Shown piece by piece: positions 6,093-55,726 of a DNA stretch of 64,000 bases. The notes under the pieces are model-generated. The model saw only the letters and a program-made list of their open reading frames with translations. It had not been told where the DNA came from and did not search any database. Position 1 is the stretch's first letter. Every line of letters begins with the position of its first letter. Both the position numbers and the translations under genes were made by a program. The DNA is from a virus, in IMG/VR virus record IMGVR_UViG_3300024520_000050, positions 114,401-178,400 of that record. One strand, given 5' to 3'.

Positions 6093-6721
6093 AAAAATTG
6101 TTTTACTGTTGTTACTTTATATTTTAATTTAGAATCACCTTTGGTCCACTTAACCTTTCCGGTTTTGCGGTCCAATGTTGTCTTCTTGTACACACTTTCC
6201 ACGATCATAGACCTTGGTGTGAATGTCTTCAAAAACAGTGTCTCTTTCTTCGGTTTAGTTGCATAAGGTATAACCTTTTGCACATAAATATTGAATCGTT
6301 GACACATTAATGACTGACGATCAGGGAATGTAGCTGAACTAGTAAGTCCGCGCCCAAACGCTCCCTTGACATCAATGTATATAACACCTCTATTGTTATT
6401 ACAATAAAAGAAAGGGCGACCTTCATAGCCGCCCTTCTTATCATGATAGAGTTTCTTATATGCTTTCTTGTTAAACTTAAATATAAAGTCTGGTGTATAA
6501 TTTCGTTTCTTGGTAAGTATAAATCTTTCTTTCTTTTGTTTGGTTTTCAATTGTGCTACACGCGCGGAGCGCACTTCATTAGTAATCAAATATGTTTTCT
6601 TTTCAGACCATATCCAATCTATATAACCTTGGTCATATAATTCAACCAACCAATCATAGAAGTATCTTTCTTCATCAGAATCGAAATTAAAGTTTATTTT
6701 ACTCTGTAATTTATTATTCAT
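6086..6721 (-). CDS. PD-(D/E)xK endonuclease, possible Holliday junction resolvase
   Basis: FDSDEE, YTPDF, IDVKG. Confidence 0.7.
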   Translation of the reverse strand: MNNKLQSKINFNFDSDEERYFYDWLVELYDQGYIDWIWSEKKTYLITNEVRSARVAQLKTKQKKERFILTKKRNYTPDFIFKFNKKAYKKLYHDKKGGYEGRPFFYCNNNRGVIYIDVKGAFGRGLTSSATFPDRQSLMCQRFNIYVQKVIPYATKPKKETLFLKTFTPRSMIVESVYKKTTLDRKTGKVKWTKGDSKLKYKVTTVKQFLC

Positions 6722-7835
6722 AATCTCTTACCGCGATACCAACAGCTTCAAGTGGTACTTTCTTATTTGAAAGTTTACGATACTCAACCGTAATCATTTG
6801 TCCTTTGACTTTGTCATCGAACTCGGCTGCCCATTTTTCACGTTGAGCACTTGTACCTTTCAATTTTACATGGAATTTTTCGCCGTCTTTAGTCTCACAA
6901 ATTAATGTAGACTGTAGAGCCATCTTACCTTTATTCCAGTAATGATCAATACACTTGAATTCATCAGTTACACGTGGTTTTATTTTCTTTTTACCAGATG
7001 TTCTGAAGCCAAAATCATACATAGAATTAGGGTCACAAAAGATAGTCCCTTCAAAACCTAACTCAAGTGATTCTTTATGGAATGCTATCAACTCTGCATG
7101 AGTATTAATAGGTGTTCCAACATCAACTTTAATGTTAGGTAAATTACTTACATCTAATGCAAGTAATAAACTACGACGTTGAGTGAATGTTAATCCGGGG
7201 ATTGCTATATCATAAATATGATACTCCAATTTTTCATTTGGATCATTACTCTTAACCATACTACCAATGTCTTGTAATGCTACTCCATGCAAATACAATT
7301 CACCATCGAATGTTTCATCCAATTGTTTATCATGCATTTCTGTAACAGAATCAAGAATATGTTGTAGATTAAATATTTTACCTTCACGAGATTTGTTTCT
7401 CACGAGGCCATTATAACGTTCAGCAAAGTTTCTACAACCATCATACTTTCTCTGTGCAAATCCAGGTTTAAATGGACCACTAGCTTCTTTATAAGGATTC
7501 AATAACATCGGCATGTCACTCAAATCCTTAAATGTATTGTACGTAGTAGATTTAACATAAGCTAAATTCAACTTATATCCTTTAGCAAACAATTTGGTAT
7601 GACGACTAACAAGCTCTTTCTCAGCTTGTTGCTTTGCTGTTGTAGCATTCTTCCTACCTAAATTCTTTCCTTCTCTAACTACGACTTTACTAGTCTTAGA
7701 ATTAACTTCATTGCCCACTGTTCCTGTTTCAGTGAACATAGTGTATTCATTTATACCCTTTGTCTTACGAGTATACATTTGCACATAGACTTCCTTTCCA
7801 GGTTTAGCCTTTCTATATAATTTTTTTAACTTCAT
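6714..7835 (-). CDS. lig: ATP-dependent DNA ligase (copy 1)
   Basis: Motif I QRKYDGCR, FDGELY, YDI, FEGTI, KIKP, OB fold. Confidence 0.9.
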   Translation of the reverse strand: MKLKKLYRKAKPGKEVYVQMYTRKTKGINEYTMFTETGTVGNEVNSKTSKVVVREGKNLGRKNATTAKQQAEKELVSRHTKLFAKGYKLNLAYVKSTTYNTFKDLSDMPMLLNPYKEASGPFKPGFAQRKYDGCRNFAERYNGLVRNKSREGKIFNLQHILDSVTEMHDKQLDETFDGELYLHGVALQDIGSMVKSNDPNEKLEYHIYDIAIPGLTFTQRRSLLLALDVSNLPNIKVDVGTPINTHAELIAFHKESLELGFEGTIFCDPNSMYDFGFRTSGKKKIKPRVTDEFKCIDHYWNKGKMALQSTLICETKDGEKFHVKLKGTSAQREKWAAEFDDKVKGQMITVEYRKLSNKKVPLEAVGIAVRDYE

Positions 7836-48786: not shown

Positions 48787-49308
48787 TCAATATCCTATAA
48801 TACCATCTTCTTTTAATTTAATATACATTGCTTGACGTCTAATGCCATAGTTTCTTGTCAATCTATGTCTATTAACAATAGTAAAATTTTTACAATCTTC
48901 ACTCATTTCAATAGCATTCATTTTAGAAGTACCTTGAATCATATTATCTTCATCTGATATATTTATAATTAATTCAGCTAATTCATTTAATGATTTAATA
49001 TTATTGACATATTGCCACATATCTAATTCTTCTTCTGGATCTAATTCTTCTTCATATTCAGTATCTTCTGGATGATAATATTTTAAAGCATATCCATCTC
49101 GAACACCATTATAATATGAACTTCCAAATTCACATTCCCAGTAAGTATCATCTAACACACAATGTAGTTTAATTTGCCAATATGTTATTTGCTTACCCAT
49201 ATCAGTGTCTGTCTGCTTAAGACTTACTACATTCCATCCTTCTTTGCAAGCAACATATTCATCATACAGACAATATTCTGTCATAACGTCATTTAATTCT
49301 TTACTCAT
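48787..49308 (-). CDS. Hypothetical protein
   Basis: ORF in operon. Confidence 0.5.
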   Translation of the reverse strand: MSKELNDVMTEYCLYDEYVACKEGWNVVSLKQTDTDMGKQITYWQIKLHCVLDDTYWECEFGSSYYNGVRDGYALKYYHPEDTEYEEELDPEEELDMWQYVNNIKSLNELAELIINISDEDNMIQGTSKMNAIEMSEDCKNFTIVNRHRLTRNYGIRRQAMYIKLKEDGIIGY

Positions 49309-50393
49309 TATTTATCTAATCTAAACCCATAGGCGACAGGAAATCTTGGTATTCCATCAAGCGTCCATTCAAAAAACCTTAGCTCTACAGTCTCTCCTAT
49401 ATAATCTTCTTTATTTTTAAGATAGTCCGCACGTTCTTCATGACTTGCTTTAAAGGATGCAGTAAATTCAACTGTATTACCCTCATCATTAATCATATTA
49501 CATAGTGCTTTACCCATTGTCGGACGACGTTCTTCTGGTATAATATCCAACAAAGTTGCAGTTCTATCAATAAAGTCTTTAAACTTCAATAAACTATCAC
49601 TTTTACCGTTTAATTTATATGAAGAATCTCCATGACGTATCATTGTACCTTCATAACCTTGTTCTAGGAACTTAGCATGATATTTCAACACTTCATCAAA
49701 TGTAGTAACTTTGTACGTTGGTACTAATTGTAGATTATGATCTTTATTTGTTTTATCTAAAGTAGAAACCAAATCCTGCAATATTTCATACCTTTTAATA
49801 AATGGATCGTCACTCACTAAATCATAAACATACCACTTAACATCCTCTGTCTCACCAGGTCTGTATTTCTTAATCAATTTCATATTATCCTGAAATGATT
49901 GACCAGCCGCATACAATTCGCCGTCGATTAAATAGGTCATATTACTAAGATCTTTTGTAATATGATCCATTGTATCGATTTCCTTATTGGTGCGACTAAA
50001 TAGTCTATTAATTGGTAAATCTGACCTTAGAATCGCCCTCATCCCATCTAACTTTGGCTGAATGTGGCAATTAGTCCAATCTATTTTATCAGCATGATCT
50101 TTATAACTTTTTGCCAACATTGGTTTGGTTACTTGAACATTCATAGCTTCACTTAAAGTTAAAAAGTATCCTTCACGTAATTTCTTAGTGAATTTACTTT
50201 CCATTTCTTTAATAGCTTGTTCGGGTCCAGTAGTTGCATTCTTCTTACCTGTATTCTTTGGCTTACATAATGATTTGTTAGTAACTTTCTTACCATCAAC
50301 TAATCCAGTTTCCTGTACTAATAAATCACCTTCAGTCCACATATTTAAGATACGAGGATTTCCCTTCGTATCTTTCTTGTATAATATTTTCAC
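49308..50393 (-). CDS. lig: ATP-dependent DNA ligase (copy 2)
   Basis: PMLA, QPKLDGMR, IDGELY, YVYD, GYEGTMIR, LLKFK, IPRFP. Confidence 0.92.
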   Translation of the reverse strand: MKILYKKDTKGNPRILNMWTEGDLLVQETGLVDGKKVTNKSLCKPKNTGKKNATTGPEQAIKEMESKFTKKLREGYFLTLSEAMNVQVTKPMLAKSYKDHADKIDWTNCHIQPKLDGMRAILRSDLPINRLFSRTNKEIDTMDHITKDLSNMTYLIDGELYAAGQSFQDNMKLIKKYRPGETEDVKWYVYDLVSDDPFIKRYEILQDLVSTLDKTNKDHNLQLVPTYKVTTFDEVLKYHAKFLEQGYEGTMIRHGDSSYKLNGKSDSLLKFKDFIDRTATLLDIIPEERRPTMGKALCNMINDEGNTVEFTASFKASHEERADYLKNKEDYIGETVELRFFEWTLDGIPRFPVAYGFRLDK

Positions 50394-51822: not shown

Positions 51823-52146
51823 TCATATTCTATTATTTAAAACTCGTTCTACCATTCCTTTAAACATTTCTTTTGCTACTAAATGAGTATTATCTGATAT
51901 ATATAAATCCCATATATTAGATGCTGCTTTAGACTCTTCTTCAATTGAATCATACTCATTAACACTCATCAATTTATAAATACTAATTGTAGGATTTATA
52001 TTTAATTTAGCATTCATTTCACCTTTGATATATGATCGTGCTTCAAAATTTAATCCTGCAATATCTAAACGTAATTCACTCTCTTCTATATCCCATATAA
52101 GATGTTTAACCCAATTACGTGTTGGTTTAATGTTTGGTTCTCTCAT
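51823..52146 (-). CDS. Hypothetical protein
   Basis: ORF in operon. Confidence 0.5.
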   Translation of the reverse strand: MREPNIKPTRNWVKHLIWDIEESELRLDIAGLNFEARSYIKGEMNAKLNINPTISIYKLMSVNEYDSIEEESKAASNIWDLYISDNTHLVAKEMFKGMVERVLNNRI

Positions 52147-52171
52147 TGTATGATTGTTTGTTTATAAATAG

Positions 52172-52400
52172 TGACTCGGGTAGGATTCGAACCTACGATC
52201 CTCTGATTAATCTTTGGTTAATCTTTTGACTAACCCTTGTGGAAATGACAGGTTTCGAACCTGCATCAATGGTATTTGATTCACAATAGTCAAATTCTTG
52301 CGAATATCAACTGTTCGGGTTTTATTATATTTCCCGAAGCGTCTTCCAATTCCGCCACATTTCCAAAGTCAGATGCTTTAGCCAACTAAGCTACCGAGTC
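52172..52400 (-). tRNA. trnK: tRNA-Lys(TTT) split in the anticodon by a ~155-nt insertion
   Basis: 5' half GACTCGG...TCTGA-CTTT (52365-52400); 3' half TTAA-TCAGA...CCGAGTC-A (52172-52210). Confidence 0.85.
52240..52364 (-). ncRNA. Nested tRNA-like element lacking a canonical anticodon
   Basis: Acceptor GGAAATG/CATTTCC-A, Leu-like D arm, TTCGGG/CCCGAA around a 13-nt A/U loop, ~50-nt variable region, T arm GCAGG-TTCGAAA-CCTGT. Confidence 0.8.
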
Positions 52401-52823
52401 ATTAACTTACCCATGTACATTAGGTAAGTTACATATACATTATCTTTAAGAATAAGATAACTAGATTAATTTGAGGTTCCTTGGTTTGTTGAACCTTGCG
52501 TGCAATCTTACATCACATAAATACTAACGATTTCATCGTGTCGCCACCTCCTTGAATCTACCTCAAGGTTAGAACCAGTTCTTTGCTGGAATTTGTAACT
52601 TCTTTATATTTCTTTTTCAATTGTGACAAGATTAACTTCAATTATTTGAACATAATTATCTTCTTTTACTTCTTCTAAAGTCATATCAACTAAACTCCAA
52701 TCTTCTTTCTCAATTGCTTTATTAGCTAATTCTTCAGTCATAAATAGATTATTTCTTTCAAATATCGGCATTTCCCATTCACACCACACTTTATATATTA
52801 TCATATTATATTGTTTTAATTAG

Positions 52824-52896
52824 TGGTACTACAGGGATTCGAACCCCAGACTCTCTGATCTTCAATCAGAAGCTCTACCAGCTGAGCTATAGTACC
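52824..52896 (-). tRNA. trnF: tRNA-Phe(GAA)
   Basis: TCTGA-TTGAAGA-TCAGA. Confidence 0.92.
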
Positions 52897-52990
52897 AAAA
52901 TGAATAAGTGTAATCCTGTTGTATTACTTGCTCTCCTTTAATATATCACTAATTCCAAATGTAAGAGACCTATTCATTATATTAATTTAG

Positions 52991-53086
52991 TTTCGGAAAC
53001 CAGATTCGAACTGATACTTGTCTCATAAATAAACGACTAGTAAACGTTTATCAATTATGAGTGCCTCTCCATTGGGCTATTCCGAA
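52991..53086 (-). ncRNA. tRNA-like RNA with a 14-bp extended anticodon arm
   Basis: Acceptor TTCGGAA/TTCCGAA, D arm, CTCATAA-(TTG)-ATAAACG-loop-CGTTTAT-TTATGAG, T arm ATCAG-TTCGAAT-CTGGT. Confidence 0.8.
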
Positions 53087-53139
53087 ATATACTCTCCCTG
53101 ATCATATATCCTAGATTCAGGGAGAGTTTTGTGACTAAT

Positions 53140-53278
53140 CGTATTCAATAAGTTTTTGGCTTAAAATCATTTGCTCGACCAAAGAGCTTCACGTCCTTTT
53201 ATACTAGTTCTTGAGGACGTGACGGGATTCGAACCCGCTCCTTTGATTATTGACTTACTGACTTTCGTCGATGAATCT
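53140..53278 (-). ncRNA. Circularly permuted tRNA mimic, YrlA-type Y RNA candidate
   Basis: Order T arm, acceptor-like stem closed by a loop, D arm; GACGAAAG matches the bacterial Y RNA GNCGAAN(0-1)G motif; ends can pair. Confidence 0.7.
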
Positions 53279-53366
53279 CATACTAAAGCTTGACTCGCAA
53301 CACTAAATGTTAAAATTACTAGTGTGTTAATCTAAGGCTAAAGCTAGAGTCATTTTTATTATTATC

Positions 53367-54155
53367 TTATTTAGAATGTAAGTATGCTAATACTTTTTCT
53401 CCTAAGTTACTTTCTTCTACTGGTACAACATTTGCTCTTCCTAAGGCTTCAATAACAGCACAGTACAAATTATCATATCTTTTCAAAATTACAGCACGTT
53501 CCATTAAACTCAATTCACCTGAGAATTTCTGTGTAGTATATTTACCAATATTTACCTGCTTAGATGTCTCACCTTTGATTGGAGCTCTATTACCTTCACT
53601 AGCATGAGGATCATTCAAAATAAATGATTCTTTAATTGTAGTTTTAGCAAATCCTTCTTCAATAGGTGTTTGATATACTCCATCAGTTCCAGTATAAGAA
53701 TCATCAGTTGTTTCCTTCCATAATTCAGTTGCTGAACGAACAGGTAAAATAGGGTATAATCCTTTCAACTTAGTATTATCCAATGTAGTTTTCAATCTTA
53801 ACAATTCTAATGAGCTATAAGTCCCCCATACTTTATCTTCTACAATTAGTTCTGCAGTTACTCTACCCGATGCATTGGTCTTCTCAATTGAAAATGCAAT
53901 ATTCATAAAATCACGAACTGATTCTTCCATCCAATCTAATTGCTGCCTAACTGTTGATTGCATATGAGTATAACCACGTTTGGTTGGTTCATCAGCATAT
54001 CCATCAAGTGGATCGTAAGTTCTACGTTCACCACGGAAAATTCCTTGGTTATTCTTAAACTTTTTCATCATATCTCCCAAACTGTTTTTAAAAGTTGTCT
54101 CTTTCTTCTCTCTTAGTCCTAAGAATGTACTTAGATTCTGTTTTGTTTTTTCCAT
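53367..54155 (-). CDS. Uncharacterised conserved protein directly upstream of the Y RNA candidate
   Basis: 262 aa; F.G.RRTY.P, EK.NA....A.L.V, LL.L...L......LPV, G..T...FSG, AL..AN, G..V..YL pattern; function unknown. Confidence 0.65.
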   Translation of the reverse strand: MEKTKQNLSTFLGLREKKETTFKNSLGDMMKKFKNNQGIFRGERRTYDPLDGYADEPTKRGYTHMQSTVRQQLDWMEESVRDFMNIAFSIEKTNASGRVTAELIVEDKVWGTYSSLELLRLKTTLDNTKLKGLYPILPVRSATELWKETTDDSYTGTDGVYQTPIEEGFAKTTIKESFILNDPHASEGNRAPIKGETSKQVNIGKYTTQKFSGELSLMERAVILKRYDNLYCAVIEALGRANVVPVEESNLGEKVLAYLHSK

Positions 54156-54163
54156 TATTCTTG

Positions 54164-54442
54164 TTAGTTATTTATTTTAAATTTTTTAATATCCCAATCT
54201 TTCATATCTTTATCTCTACTATTCTTAATGTAATCATCAAGATCTTTAGCTTCTTTTTCAATTAAATCCCCATCTCTATTCATATGTTTGCATAATAAAA
54301 CATGTTGTTTATATTCTTCCATTTGTGATTGAAGAACTGCTTTATTAGCACCTTCTTTACTTTTATGTAAACTCATTGTCATCCAATTACCTTCGTAAAT
54401 ACAAGGTAAATACATTGCACCATATACTATATTTATATTCAT
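54164..54442 (-). CDS. Hypothetical protein, paralog of 60136-60384
   Basis: Shared IVY.A.Y....E....T.SLH.sKEGA.KA. Confidence 0.55.
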   Translation of the reverse strand: MNINIVYGAMYLPCIYEGNWMTMSLHKSKEGANKAVLQSQMEEYKQHVLLCKHMNRDGDLIEKEAKDLDDYIKNSRDKDMKDWDIKKFKINN

Positions 54443-54514
54443 CTTTAATATTTTATTAACCTATTAATTGTTCATCAATACTTTTAAGCATTAACTCAAG
54501 TTCATAAAGTCTAT

Positions 54515-54551
54515 TTAATAATTCAGGTTTATTATAAACCTGAATTATTAA
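54515..54551. repeat. Perfect 18-bp inverted repeat with 1-nt spacer
   Basis: TTAATAATTCAGGTTTAT-T-ATAAACCTGAATTATTAA. Confidence 0.9.
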
Positions 54552-54842
54552 TTTTTCAATCTCCAGTAATATCTGTCGTCTCTTCCAATTTAGTGCTACT
54601 CTCTTTATTAGATTCATGATCATTTAATTTAAAAATCAACACTTATTCTTAATATAATAGGTATCATATATTCTTCATCACATTCTTCACAGTAAAATCC
54701 TACTTCATAAGGTTTATTAACTATTGGATAAAATAAATAATTTGATTCCAAATCGATATGCATTGGTTTATTGCAAGATTTACATTCCTTTGTGATTACA
54801 ATTGGAAGATAAAATCTTTTTACTCCTAATTCATATTCTTCT

Positions 54843-55148
54843 TTAACTTGTTGATTCATTTATATTTAATTTAATATATAATTCCTCATAAATAGGCATT
54901 TCACAATCTACAAGATTAACTCCATCTATTTTAGTCCATTGACCTTCGGGTGTTTTAATCCAATTAGTTTCACAACCAAACCATACTACTTCACCATCTT
55001 TCTTCTCTAATCTTTCAATTTGATATGGATTAGCAGCGAATTCTTTTTGATCTGGTTCTCCGTAAGGATATTCACATTCAAATACTTCAGATTTTCTCAT
55101 GGTTTTCATCTTATTCAACTTCTTAGTTTCTAATTGTAGTTCTTCCAT
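54843..55148 (-). CDS. Hypothetical protein
   Basis: ORF in operon. Confidence 0.5.
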   Translation of the reverse strand: MEELQLETKKLNKMKTMRKSEVFECEYPYGEPDQKEFAANPYQIERLEKKDGEVVWFGCETNWIKTPEGQWTKIDGVNLVDCEMPIYEELYIKLNINESTS

Positions 55149-55171
55149 TTTTGTTTTCTTTAAGTTATTAA

Positions 55172-55726
55172 TTAATCATAGTAACACCTTACAGTAGCAT
55201 ATATTTTCATAAATGTATTAAATATAGCACGTATATTTTCTGCTCCTACAGGATTTGCTGAATGTACTTTTATTTCAGAAGATAAGAATATTTTATTGTC
55301 AATACAATAATCAGTTAACCATTTAGCACAGTCCATACCAGAAGGTTGTAATACTCTATTCTTCCTTTGTTTACGCTTCTTATTTTTATCCTTATCAGCT
55401 ATTATTTCACCTAAATCATGATCAAAAGAAATACGTTCAGGTAATCCTCTTGTTTTAATAATATCAGAGAATTCATCTAAAGTAGTTACAAGAACCCAAT
55501 CTTTTAGTAAATATAATTCACCAAAACCATTGATTTTACGTAAGTATTCAATACTTCTTATAGGATGTCTTTCATCATCTAAGAATAAGTTATAATTTCC
55601 TATATTATCCAGTTCCTTTTCAAAATACTCAATTCTCTTCAAGTATTCAGGTTTACTAGAATGACGACATTCTTTAAGACTTTTAATCTTTTGTTCTAAT
55701 ACATAGATTTCATCCATCATCTTCAA
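55172..55726 (-). CDS. Cyclic-phosphate-processing receiver (cREC-type) domain protein
   Basis: LFLDDER.P, W.LV....EF, ISFDHDLG, SGMDCAKWL, VHSANPVG..NI. Confidence 0.85.
   Translation of the reverse strand: MKMMDEIYVLEQKIKSLKECRHSSKPEYLKRIEYFEKELDNIGNYNLFLDDERHPIRSIEYLRKINGFGELYLLKDWVLVTTLDEFSDIIKTRGLPERISFDHDLGEIIADKDKNKKRKQRKNRVLQPSGMDCAKWLTDYCIDNKIFLSSEIKVHSANPVGAENIRAIFNTFMKIYATVRCYYD

What the first reader, a model, noticed from the sequence alone, without database searches (positions are those of the whole stretch)
52172..55726. Putative tRNA-mimic and RNA-repair locus
Seen: within 3.6 kb lie the split tRNA-Lys, two anticodon-less tRNA-like RNAs, a Y RNA candidate, a conserved unknown 262-aa protein directly upstream of the RNAs, and a cyclic-phosphate-processing receiver gene. 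Thg1, a calcineurin-like phosphoesterase, a HAD phosphatase, a second ligase and YqeY lie elsewhere in the window. Knowledge: Y RNA/Ro60 systems and cREC domains are linked to RNA repair. Inference: a counter-defence system against tRNA-cleaving immunity that uses decoy RNAs plus end-healing enzymes, with the 262-aa protein a candidate RNA-binding partner.
Basis: inference. Interest (0 to 1): 0.75.

Follow-up and report, generated by a model that had tools for sequence, protein, structure and literature searches.

The report
tRNA-mimic RNA paired with DUF7873
Part of this phage stretch is a real, conserved pairing of an unknown protein gene (DUF7873) with a folded RNA that looks like a tRNA turned inside out, but the wider 'RNA-repair counter-defence system' drawn around it is not supported.

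Summary
Most of the listed pieces exist: a tRNA-Lys(UUU) split by a 155-nt tRNA-shaped insert, a second anticodon-less tRNA look-alike, a Y-RNA-like element, a 262-aa conserved protein (Pfam DUF7873) and a cREC gene. The calcineurin-like and HAD phosphatases were not found.

Only three pieces travel together. These are the DUF7873 gene, a ~260-nt structured RNA directly after it (window 53352-53091, minus strand) and the tRNA look-alike that follows (53086-52991). The RNA has a 5' domain of AGCNUU hexamer repeats, a long bulged stem, a circularly permuted tRNA mimic of the YrlA type, and a 3' hairpin with a conserved loop.

A covariance model of the mimic hits once, just downstream of the gene, in 27 distinct viral loci and in 14 of 19 bacterial loci. 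A model of the 5' domain hits exactly the 9 of 151 Cytophagales genomes that carry this gene subfamily.

cREC, Ro60/TROVE and RtcB do not co-occur with the module. In bacteria it sits among housekeeping genes. So it is probably a Ro60-independent Y-RNA-like particle, not a dedicated anti-defence cassette.

This scan has reported the DUF7873-RNA pair before on other DNA (227 notes, at least 139 genomes). I found no paper describing it.

The parts
53367..54155 (-). DUF7873 protein gene (262 aa)
   Evidence: Pfam PF25283, E 2.5e-36. 187 homologues of about 255 aa. AF2 model with pLDDT 89 shows a three-helix bundle with beta hairpins and has no clear PDB or BFVD match. No fused forms found.
53269..53352 (-). 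5' domain of the RNA: stem P1 (53352-53347 with 53296-53291) encloses AGCNUU hexamer repeats, a variable hairpin and UUAGUGUUG. More repeats follow P1.
   Evidence: Alignment A8 of 36 loci. P1 has a different sequence in most loci: cognate strands form 5 bp or more in 84%, against 27% for non-cognate pairs. Sequence model R2 hits only next to this gene subfamily.
53134..53283 (-). Long bulged stem. P4 is about 53276-53270 with 53140-53134, and P3 is 53260-53253 with 53153-46. GACGAAAG (53269-53262) lies in the internal loop. The stem carries the tRNA-like head.
   Evidence: P3 reaches 6 bp or more in 34 of 37 loci, with differing sequences. P4 was read by eye. The GAAAG motif was read. RNAfold z-score of the whole RNA is -3.4.
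53153..53249 (-). Circularly permuted tRNA mimic, in this order: anticodon-stem 3' strand, variable loop, T arm (53238-53222), 7-bp acceptor stem closed by a loop (53221-53190), D arm (53187-53173), anticodon-stem 5' strand.
   Evidence: Model R1 scores 70.4 bits here. On 27 sequences 94% of cells pair, 19 of 21 pairs show changes on both sides, and 0 of 500 shuffles reach this. Rfam YrlA scores 29 bits, below threshold.
53091..53127 (-). 3' hairpin: 11-bp GC-rich stem with loop AUCUAGGAUAUAUGA
   Evidence: A stem of 8-14 bp, different in each locus, keeps an AGGAUA-type loop in 34 of the 37 loci. Eleven to fourteen of these hairpins, depending on how strictly a run is counted, are followed by a U run.
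52991..53086 (-). Pseudo-tRNA without a usable anticodon loop. It has normal acceptor, D and T arms, and the anticodon arm is replaced by a long helix.
   Evidence: Rfam tRNA 33.4 bits. A counterpart follows the Y-like RNA in about 36 of 39 loci, bacterial ones included, by my reading of the sequences; a script delimited 26 of them. Among those 26 the D arm is nearest Leu or Ser tRNAs in 16, and the last base printed (the discriminator, where the script's limits are right) is A in 24. Two rows are suspect: L006, a nearby ordinary tRNA, and L017.
52171..52400 (-). tRNA-Lys(UUU) split in the anticodon loop. The 5' exon runs to about 52365. The insert is a tRNA-Leu-like pseudo-tRNA (52364-52240) plus a trailer hairpin (52239 to about 52206). 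The 3' exon starts at about 52205.
   Evidence: ARAGORN -i, Rfam and fold. It is the only tRNA-Lys in the genome. The same DNA is present in runs X3 and X4. It is not part of the conserved module: no other locus fetched has a nested tRNA.
55172..55726 (-). cREC_REC domain gene; a neighbour, not a component of the module
   Evidence: PF20274, E 8e-20. Not near DUF7873 elsewhere. Present in 1 of 5 DUF7873 phage genomes.

Best explanation
The 3.6-kb span is not one system. Its conserved core is a three-part module: the DUF7873 gene, a structured RNA of about 260 nt that starts about 15 nt after the stop codon, and a pseudo-tRNA of the Leu/Ser (class II) type.

Shown:
- The three parts are inherited together in phages and in Bacteroidota chromosomes.
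- The RNA fold is under selection: four stems of a permuted tRNA, two outer stems, a 5' stem and a 3' hairpin all covary.

Inferred:
- The RNA and the protein form a particle that does not need Ro60.
- The protein binds the repeated AGCNUU elements and/or the bulged stem.
- The tRNA-shaped head engages tRNA-handling enzymes such as RNase P, the CCA-adding enzyme and modification enzymes, as shown for YrlA.
- The RNA's 3' end is set either by the terminator-like hairpin or by RNase P cutting at the pseudo-tRNA or tRNA that follows.

The likely job is RNA or tRNA surveillance or processing. The phage has placed the module inside its tRNA gene cluster. The split tRNA-Lys and the cREC gene are separate features of the same tRNA-rich region.
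For: - R1 gives one hit of 45 bits or more per locus, always just downstream of DUF7873 on the same strand, in 27 distinct loci: the window, 24 IMG/VR loci and two Vibrio phages. The Vibrio phages share only 27% protein identity with the window's protein and were not in the seed. The best background hit scores 35 bits.
- 14 of 19 GTDB loci have the hit. Two more carry the RNA with a large repeat insert, seen by eye. The other three end within about 100 bases after the gene or inside it.
- Lak-A2 keeps both gene and RNA, 360 kb apart.
- R2, the 5' domain model, gives strong hits in exactly the 9 of 151 Cytophagales genomes that hold the window-type gene. Each hit lies 28-111 nt after the gene.
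- Covariation supports the fold.
- YrlA scores below threshold but recurs at the same place: 29-46 bits in 5 loci.
- There is no TROVE in the phage. TROVE is unlinked, or not found, in bacterial carriers.
- Where no pseudo-tRNA follows (L012, L014, L016), the hairpin is followed by a U run. In the Vibrio phages a true tRNA-Lys follows instead.
Against: - No transcript, binding or processing data exist. No RNA run holds this DNA.
- The protein has no recognisable RNA-binding fold or motif.
- Adjacency could reflect co-transcription only.
- An earlier check within this scan (e1-2703945) put the protein-binds-RNA reading at about 22 in 100.
- In several Cytophagales genomes of the other DUF7873 subfamily, the listed R1 hits lie 76-150 kb from the gene.
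Confidence: 0.55

Rival explanations
1. The whole span is one counter-defence system against tRNA-cleaving immunity: decoy tRNA-like RNAs plus end-healing enzymes (cREC, phosphatases, ligases, Thg1), with DUF7873 as the RNA-binding partner.
For: - The module lies inside a 20-tRNA cluster.
- In the Vibrio phages it is followed by tRNA-Lys(UUU), a known nuclease target.
- cREC is predicted to process cyclic phosphates (PMC7824862).
- The genome encodes an Rnl2-type RNA ligase.
Against: - The components do not co-occur.
- There is no RtcB, Rnl1 or Ro60.
- The phosphatases were not found.
- Bacterial copies sit among housekeeping genes without tRNAs.
- Nothing matches PADLOC.
Confidence: 0.1
2. 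The RNA is a true Y RNA that works with the host's Ro60/Rsr. DUF7873 is an accessory or an unrelated neighbour.
For: - The window RNA has GACGAAAG, which fits the GNCGAAN0-1G motif proposed for Rsr binding (PMC4201824; sequence).
- TROVE genes exist in 3 of 5 Cytophagales carriers.
- R1 also hits 1.7 kb downstream of a TROVE gene in G001.
Against: - In 2 of 5 carriers no TROVE was found.
- The motif is only partly kept in relatives (GAUGAAAG, UUUGAAAG).
- YrlA scores stay well under the gathering score.
- The linkage is to DUF7873, not to TROVE.
Confidence: 0.15
3. There is no particle. The structured RNA is a cis-acting 3' element that stabilises or processes the DUF7873 transcript, or punctuates the tRNA-cluster transcript. 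The pseudo-tRNA is only an RNase P/Z cutting signal.
For: - The RNA starts about 15 nt after the stop codon.
- It is followed by a terminator-like hairpin.
- The middle of the pseudo-tRNA is hypervariable, with total lengths of 71-159 nt, as expected if only its shape matters.
Against: - Gene and RNA are unlinked in Lak-A2.
- Tandem arrays of three RNA units stand apart from the gene in a Cytophagales chromosome.
- A fold this elaborate and this well conserved exceeds what a processing signal needs.
Confidence: 0.15

Closest known systems
YrlA-class bacterial and phage Y RNAs with Ro60/Rsr (Rfam RF02553; Chen et al. 2014, PMC4201824; Wang et al. 2018, bioRxiv 10.1101/312249)
   Same: Both have a long stem formed by distant 5' and 3' segments, with an internal-loop motif. 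The stem is topped by a tRNA mimic in the order T arm, loop-closed acceptor stem, D arm. Both are encoded next to a protein partner gene on the same strand, in bacteria and in phages.
   Different: The partner gene is DUF7873, not a TROVE protein. Rfam scores are 29-46 bits against a gathering score of 69. This RNA adds a 5' hexamer-repeat domain, a 3' hairpin with a conserved loop and a linked pseudo-tRNA. The mimic here keeps a full anticodon-stem equivalent.
Small stable tRNA-like RNAs in phage tRNA clusters (T4 species 1 and 2, RNA C and D). From my own knowledge; not checked here.
   Same: Non-decoding stable RNAs encoded among phage tRNA genes and processed together with them.
   Different: No conserved protein partner or permuted topology is known for the T4 RNAs. 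No sequence comparison was made here.
MALAT1-mascRNA type 3'-end formation by a downstream tRNA-like element. From my own knowledge.
   Same: A tRNA-shaped element directly after a non-coding RNA could let RNase P set that RNA's 3' end. In the Vibrio phages a true tRNA takes this position.
   Different: That case is eukaryotic. Here a terminator-like hairpin often lies between the two RNAs, so the pseudo-tRNA may be a separate product. Untested.
Split and permuted tRNA genes of Nanoarchaeum and Cyanidioschyzon, and group I introns in bacterial tRNA anticodon loops
   Same: A tRNA gene is interrupted in the anticodon loop.
   Different: The insert here is itself a tRNA-shaped RNA of 125 nt plus a 30-nt hairpin. 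It is too short for a group I intron and does not end in G. No splicing endonuclease gene was found.

Membership tests
YrlA / Y RNA (Rfam RF02553) | Score at or above the Rfam gathering threshold (69 bits) | tested here: not met
   29 bits in the window; 34-46 bits in 4 relatives.
YrlA / Y RNA (Rfam RF02553) | tRNA-like domain in the order T arm, closed acceptor stem, D arm | tested here: met
   R1 model; 94% of cells paired; 19 of 21 pairs covary.
YrlA / Y RNA (Rfam RF02553) | Encoded within about 4 kb of a Ro60/TROVE gene on the same strand (criterion of Chen et al. 2014) | tested here: not met
   No TROVE in the 178-kb genome. TROVE is unlinked or not found in bacterial carriers.
YrlA / Y RNA (Rfam RF02553) | GNCGAAN0-1G motif near the 5' side of the stem | tested here: met
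   GACGAAAG at 53269-53262. Relatives keep only GAAAG.
Ro60-Y RNA or Rtc RNA-repair operon | Presence of RtcB/RtcA or Ro60 with the RNA | tested here: not met
   PF01139 and PF05731 are absent from the genome. RtcA was not searched.
T4-type tRNA repair (Pnkp + Rnl1) | Rnl1 ligase and a kinase-phosphatase | tested here: inconclusive
   PF09511 gave no match, but it matched no control genome either. An Rnl2-type ligase is present at genome 7536-8141. Kinase was not searched. PF00149 and PF13419 are absent.
Canonical decoding tRNA (for 53086-52991 and 52364-52240) | 7-nt anticodon loop on a 5-bp stem | tested here: not met
   The Rfam alignments need 32-nt and 13-nt inserts in place of the loop. 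Standard ARAGORN does not call either element.
Group I intron (for the tRNA-Lys insert) | Match to the group I model, and a terminal G | tested here: not met
   No Intron_gpI hit at E up to 5 in 52000-53500. The insert ends in A or U.
cREC-centred RNA-end processing system (Iyer et al. 2021, PMC7824862) | Operon linkage of cREC to an RNA ligase | tested here: not met
   The immediate neighbours are small ORFs with no Pfam, PHROG or PADLOC match. The nearest ligase-like gene is 5 kb away.

The most novel reading that the evidence does not exclude
DUF7873 assembles as an oligomer on the hexamer-period AGCNUU repeats of the RNA, much as TRAP binds spaced UAG/GAG triplets. This would make a Ro60-independent particle with two tRNA look-alikes: the permuted head and a class II pseudo-tRNA with discriminator A. 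Leucyl-tRNA synthetase might charge that pseudo-tRNA, because it does not read the anticodon. In the phage the particle would help mature or protect the tRNA cluster. That could include the nested tRNA-Lys, whose insert would be cut out by RNase P and RNase Z and whose halves would be rejoined by the phage's Rnl2-type ligase.
Probability: 0.1. Interest if true: 0.85.

Novelty: new variant of a known kind. Interest (0 to 1): 0.62.

Why it matters
Y RNAs are known only as partners of Ro60. An RNA with the same inside-out tRNA head, inherited with a different and wholly uncharacterised protein in phages and bacteria, suggests that tRNA mimicry is used by a second kind of RNA-protein particle. The module occurs in cultured Vibrio phages and in a cultured Xanthocytophaga strain, so it can be tested directly. 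For this window, the result also separates a real conserved unit from neighbours that merely lie close by.

Tried and rejected
- Near-identity DNA search of the span against GenBank phages found no match.
- Fold searches of the DUF7873 model gave nothing convincing. This covers Foldseek against PDB and BFVD, and VIA-align wide, where the best Z of 6.1 was to helical bundles.
- A profile search against PDB sequences gave nothing.
- The ESM Atlas gave only unnamed clusters.
- PHROGs, PADLOC and NCBIfam gave no family for DUF7873.
- A search for longer, fused forms found none.
- No RNA holder is listed for this DNA, so expression could not be examined.
- The laid DNA contigs showed no insert-less tRNA-Lys allele.
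- The other long 'introns' called by ARAGORN in related loci turned out to be tandem tRNAs, not nested ones.
- I considered a kissing interaction between the 3' hairpin loop (AGGA) and the CCUC at the acceptor end. I dropped it because L025 and L028 lack the complement (read).
- The sigma-70 promoter scan was at chance level.
- R1 used alone on whole bacterial genomes is not specific. It scores tandem arrays of identical tRNA genes at 50-66 bits.
- Burroughs and Aravind 2016 (PMC5062991) is not held, so it could not be read.
Full report
**Where the window lies.** The window is the last 64 kb of a 178.4-kb seawater virus contig that CheckV rates as complete. All genes in the region lie on the minus strand. 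ARAGORN finds 20 ordinary tRNAs in the window.

**Checking the observation.**
- Rfam at gathering thresholds adds two odd tRNA hits: 52364-52240 (35.4 bits) and 53086-52991 (33.4 bits).
- With relaxed thresholds it also shows a full-length YrlA match of 29 bits at 53261-53142, well under the family's 69 bits.
- Reading the minus strand, the first odd hit lies inside a tRNA-Lys(UUU). Its two halves are otherwise normal.
- This is the only tRNA-Lys in the genome.
- Contigs from independent seawater runs carry the same insert-bearing DNA, so it is not an assembly error.
- The 262-aa ORF is Pfam DUF7873 and the 184-aa ORF is cREC_REC.
- Thg1, IF3, YqeY and two ATP-dependent DNA-ligase-like genes are present.
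- No calcineurin-like or HAD phosphatase was found among 60 ORFs scanned, nor by PF00149 or PF13419 over the whole genome.

**What travels together.** DUF7873 has 187 homologues of about 255 aa.
- I fetched 28 viral loci, three GenBank phage loci and 19 bacterial genome loci.
- In nearly all of them a T-arm-like motif sits 130-160 nt after the stop codon.
- The downstream DNA aligns in blocks.
- tblastn of the window's other proteins against the viral loci found no cREC and none of the small ORFs of the flagged span near DUF7873. Only three unrelated genes from elsewhere in the window each matched one or two loci.
- cREC is present in 1 of 5 DUF7873 phage genomes.
- The phage has no TROVE and no RtcB.

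**The RNA head.** I aligned 16 sequences of the tRNA-like part and wrote its structure as a four-way junction. The order is anticodon-stem 3' strand, 5-nt variable loop, T arm, 7-bp acceptor stem closed by a loop, two bases, D arm, one base, anticodon-stem 5' strand.
- On the seed, 91% of cells pair and 19 of 21 pairs change on both sides.
- On 27 sequences aligned by the model, 94% of cells pair and no shuffle or slid register comes close.
- Model R1 gives one strong hit (45-93 bits) just after the gene in 27 distinct loci: the window, 24 IMG/VR loci and two Vibrio phages. The Vibrio phages share only 27% protein identity and were not in the seed. The next best hits score 35 bits or less.
- L022 scores only 20 bits and appears to carry a large insert.
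- Lak-A2 has no hit near its gene but has one of 61.5 bits 360 kb away.
- Among the 19 bacterial loci, 14 have the hit. Two more (L035, L037) have the RNA with a long tandem-repeat insert in the acceptor loop. The remaining three end within about 100 bases after the gene or inside it.
- Rfam YrlA scores 34-46 bits at the same place in four of five loci tested.

**The rest of the RNA.**
- *Outer stems.* Outside the head, stem P3 (CA...UG or UA...UA at its base) and stem P4 enclose an internal loop with GAAAG. The window reads GACGAAAG, which fits the motif that Chen et al. proposed for Rsr binding. P3 reaches 6 bp or more in 34 of 37 loci, with different sequences.
- *5' domain.* Upstream lies stem P1, which differs in almost every locus. 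It encloses three to five AGCNUU repeats, a variable hairpin and UUAGUGUUG. Two or three more repeats follow P1, and similar UUAGC/UAAG words lie between the head and P3.
- *Repeat pairing.* Cognate pairs of the two main repeat tracts form more stable duplexes than non-cognate pairs (-8.75 against -6.96 kcal/mol; better than the median in 28 of 36). That pairing crosses P1, so it would be a pseudoknot or an alternative state. I could not decide between RNA-RNA pairing and a repeated protein-binding site.
- *3' hairpin.* In 34 of the 37 loci the RNA ends in an 8-14-bp hairpin whose stem differs in every locus and whose loop keeps GAAGGAUAUUGA or UAGGAUAUAUGA. Some of these hairpins are followed by a U run.
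- *Stability.* The window RNA folds more stably than its shuffles (z = -3.4).

**The pseudo-tRNA.**
- After the hairpin, about 36 of 39 loci have a tRNA-shaped RNA by my reading of the sequences. It has normal acceptor, D and T arms. Its middle varies freely, giving total lengths of 71-159 nt.
- A script delimited 26 of these. The D arm is closest to Leu or Ser tRNAs in 16. The last base printed is A in 24. The delimitation is suspect in two rows: L006, where it took a nearby ordinary tRNA, and L017.
- The window's 53086-52991 is this element.
- Where it is missing (L012, L014, L016), a U run follows the hairpin. In the Vibrio phages a true tRNA-Lys takes its place.
- The insert inside the window's tRNA-Lys has the same Leu-like 5' half (GUGGCGGAAUUGG...). 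It therefore looks like a second copy of this kind of element that landed in, or was built into, the tRNA-Lys gene. No other locus fetched shows such nesting.

**A specific test of linkage.**
- In 151 Cytophagales genomes, 25 hold DUF7873. They fall into two subfamilies by Pfam score.
- A sequence-only model of the 5' domain (R2) gives strong hits (38-63 bits) in exactly nine genomes. These are the nine with the window-type subfamily, and each hit lies 28-111 nt after the gene. The other 142 genomes give at most 23 bits.
- The other subfamily has R1 hits next to the gene in at least seven genomes. Elsewhere it has tandem arrays of two or three RNA units about 500 nt apart and unlinked to the gene.
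- R1 alone is not specific in whole genomes, because tandem identical tRNA genes mimic a permuted tRNA.

**Context in bacteria.**
- In Xanthocytophaga flavus and in a Cyclobacteriaceae chromosome the pair sits between an oxidoreductase, an alpha-amylase, an exosortase, a LuxR-type regulator and similar genes. No tRNAs or phage genes are nearby.
- TROVE genes exist in 3 of 5 carriers but on other contigs or far away. In G001 an R1 hit lies 1.7 kb after a TROVE gene and is probably an ordinary YrlA.
- The two systems can therefore coexist.

**The protein.**
- The AF2 model is confident (pLDDT 89). It shows three long helices with beta hairpins inserted.
- No convincing structural or sequence relative was found.
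- No family name came from PHROGs, PADLOC or NCBIfam, and no fused forms were found.
- Its role is therefore inferred only from linkage.

**Reading.**
- The gene-RNA-pseudo-tRNA module is real, and I found no paper describing it.
- I think it most likely forms a Ro60-independent, Y-RNA-like particle. The best-explanation section gives the odds.
- The 'counter-defence with end-healing enzymes' frame is not supported by co-occurrence or by gene content.
- *The split tRNA-Lys.* The chemistry of one maturation route is coherent. RNase P would leave a 3'-OH exactly at the end of the 5' exon. An ATP-dependent Rnl2-type ligase is encoded in the genome. However, a 30-nt trailer must also be removed, and nothing was tested. 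I put a working tRNA-Lys at roughly 0.3, and a recently disrupted gene at about the same or a little higher.

**Earlier work in this scan.** The DUF7873-RNA pair has been reported many times on other DNA (227 notes in at least 139 genomes). I came to it independently, before I saw those notes.

Noticed in passing
   Followed up: no
whole genome: The phage tRNA set covers most amino acids. It has no tRNA-Glu and no normal tRNA-Ala(UGC), and it has tRNA-Lys only in the split form.
   Followed up: partly
L005 1792-2217; L009 2710-3050: Sub-threshold full-length tmRNA matches (34.5 and 29.2 bits against a gathering score of 47) at the head of the tRNA clusters of two related phages.
   Followed up: no
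L029 10809-11088: Group I intron above the Rfam threshold (76 bits) in a DUF7873-bearing phage.
   Followed up: no
L035 about 6920-7200; L037 about 2430 to the end: The loop that closes the acceptor stem of the permuted tRNA carries hundreds of bases of short tandem repeats (GGAATTA units; GATGGTT-type units). The loop therefore tolerates very large inserts.
   Followed up: no
L058 (G067:C1:2738000-2740400): Three tandem copies, about 520 nt each, of a unit made of repeat domain, permuted tRNA, tRNA-like element and terminator. They lie 136 kb from the genome's DUF7873 gene.
   Followed up: partly
window 6714-7835 and 49308-50393; genome 7536-8141: Two ATP-dependent DNA-ligase-like genes lie in the window. 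A separate Rnl2-type RNA ligase lies outside it.
   Followed up: no
window 52823-52970 (-): Weak match (23.9 bits against a gathering score of 81) to the DUF2693 RNA motif. It overlaps tRNA-Phe and the spacer before it.
   Followed up: no
L002 2982-3107: Vibrio phage K479 has a 126-nt element annotated as tRNA (Rfam 37.4 bits) with a long insert, about 700 nt upstream of its DUF7873 gene.
   Followed up: no
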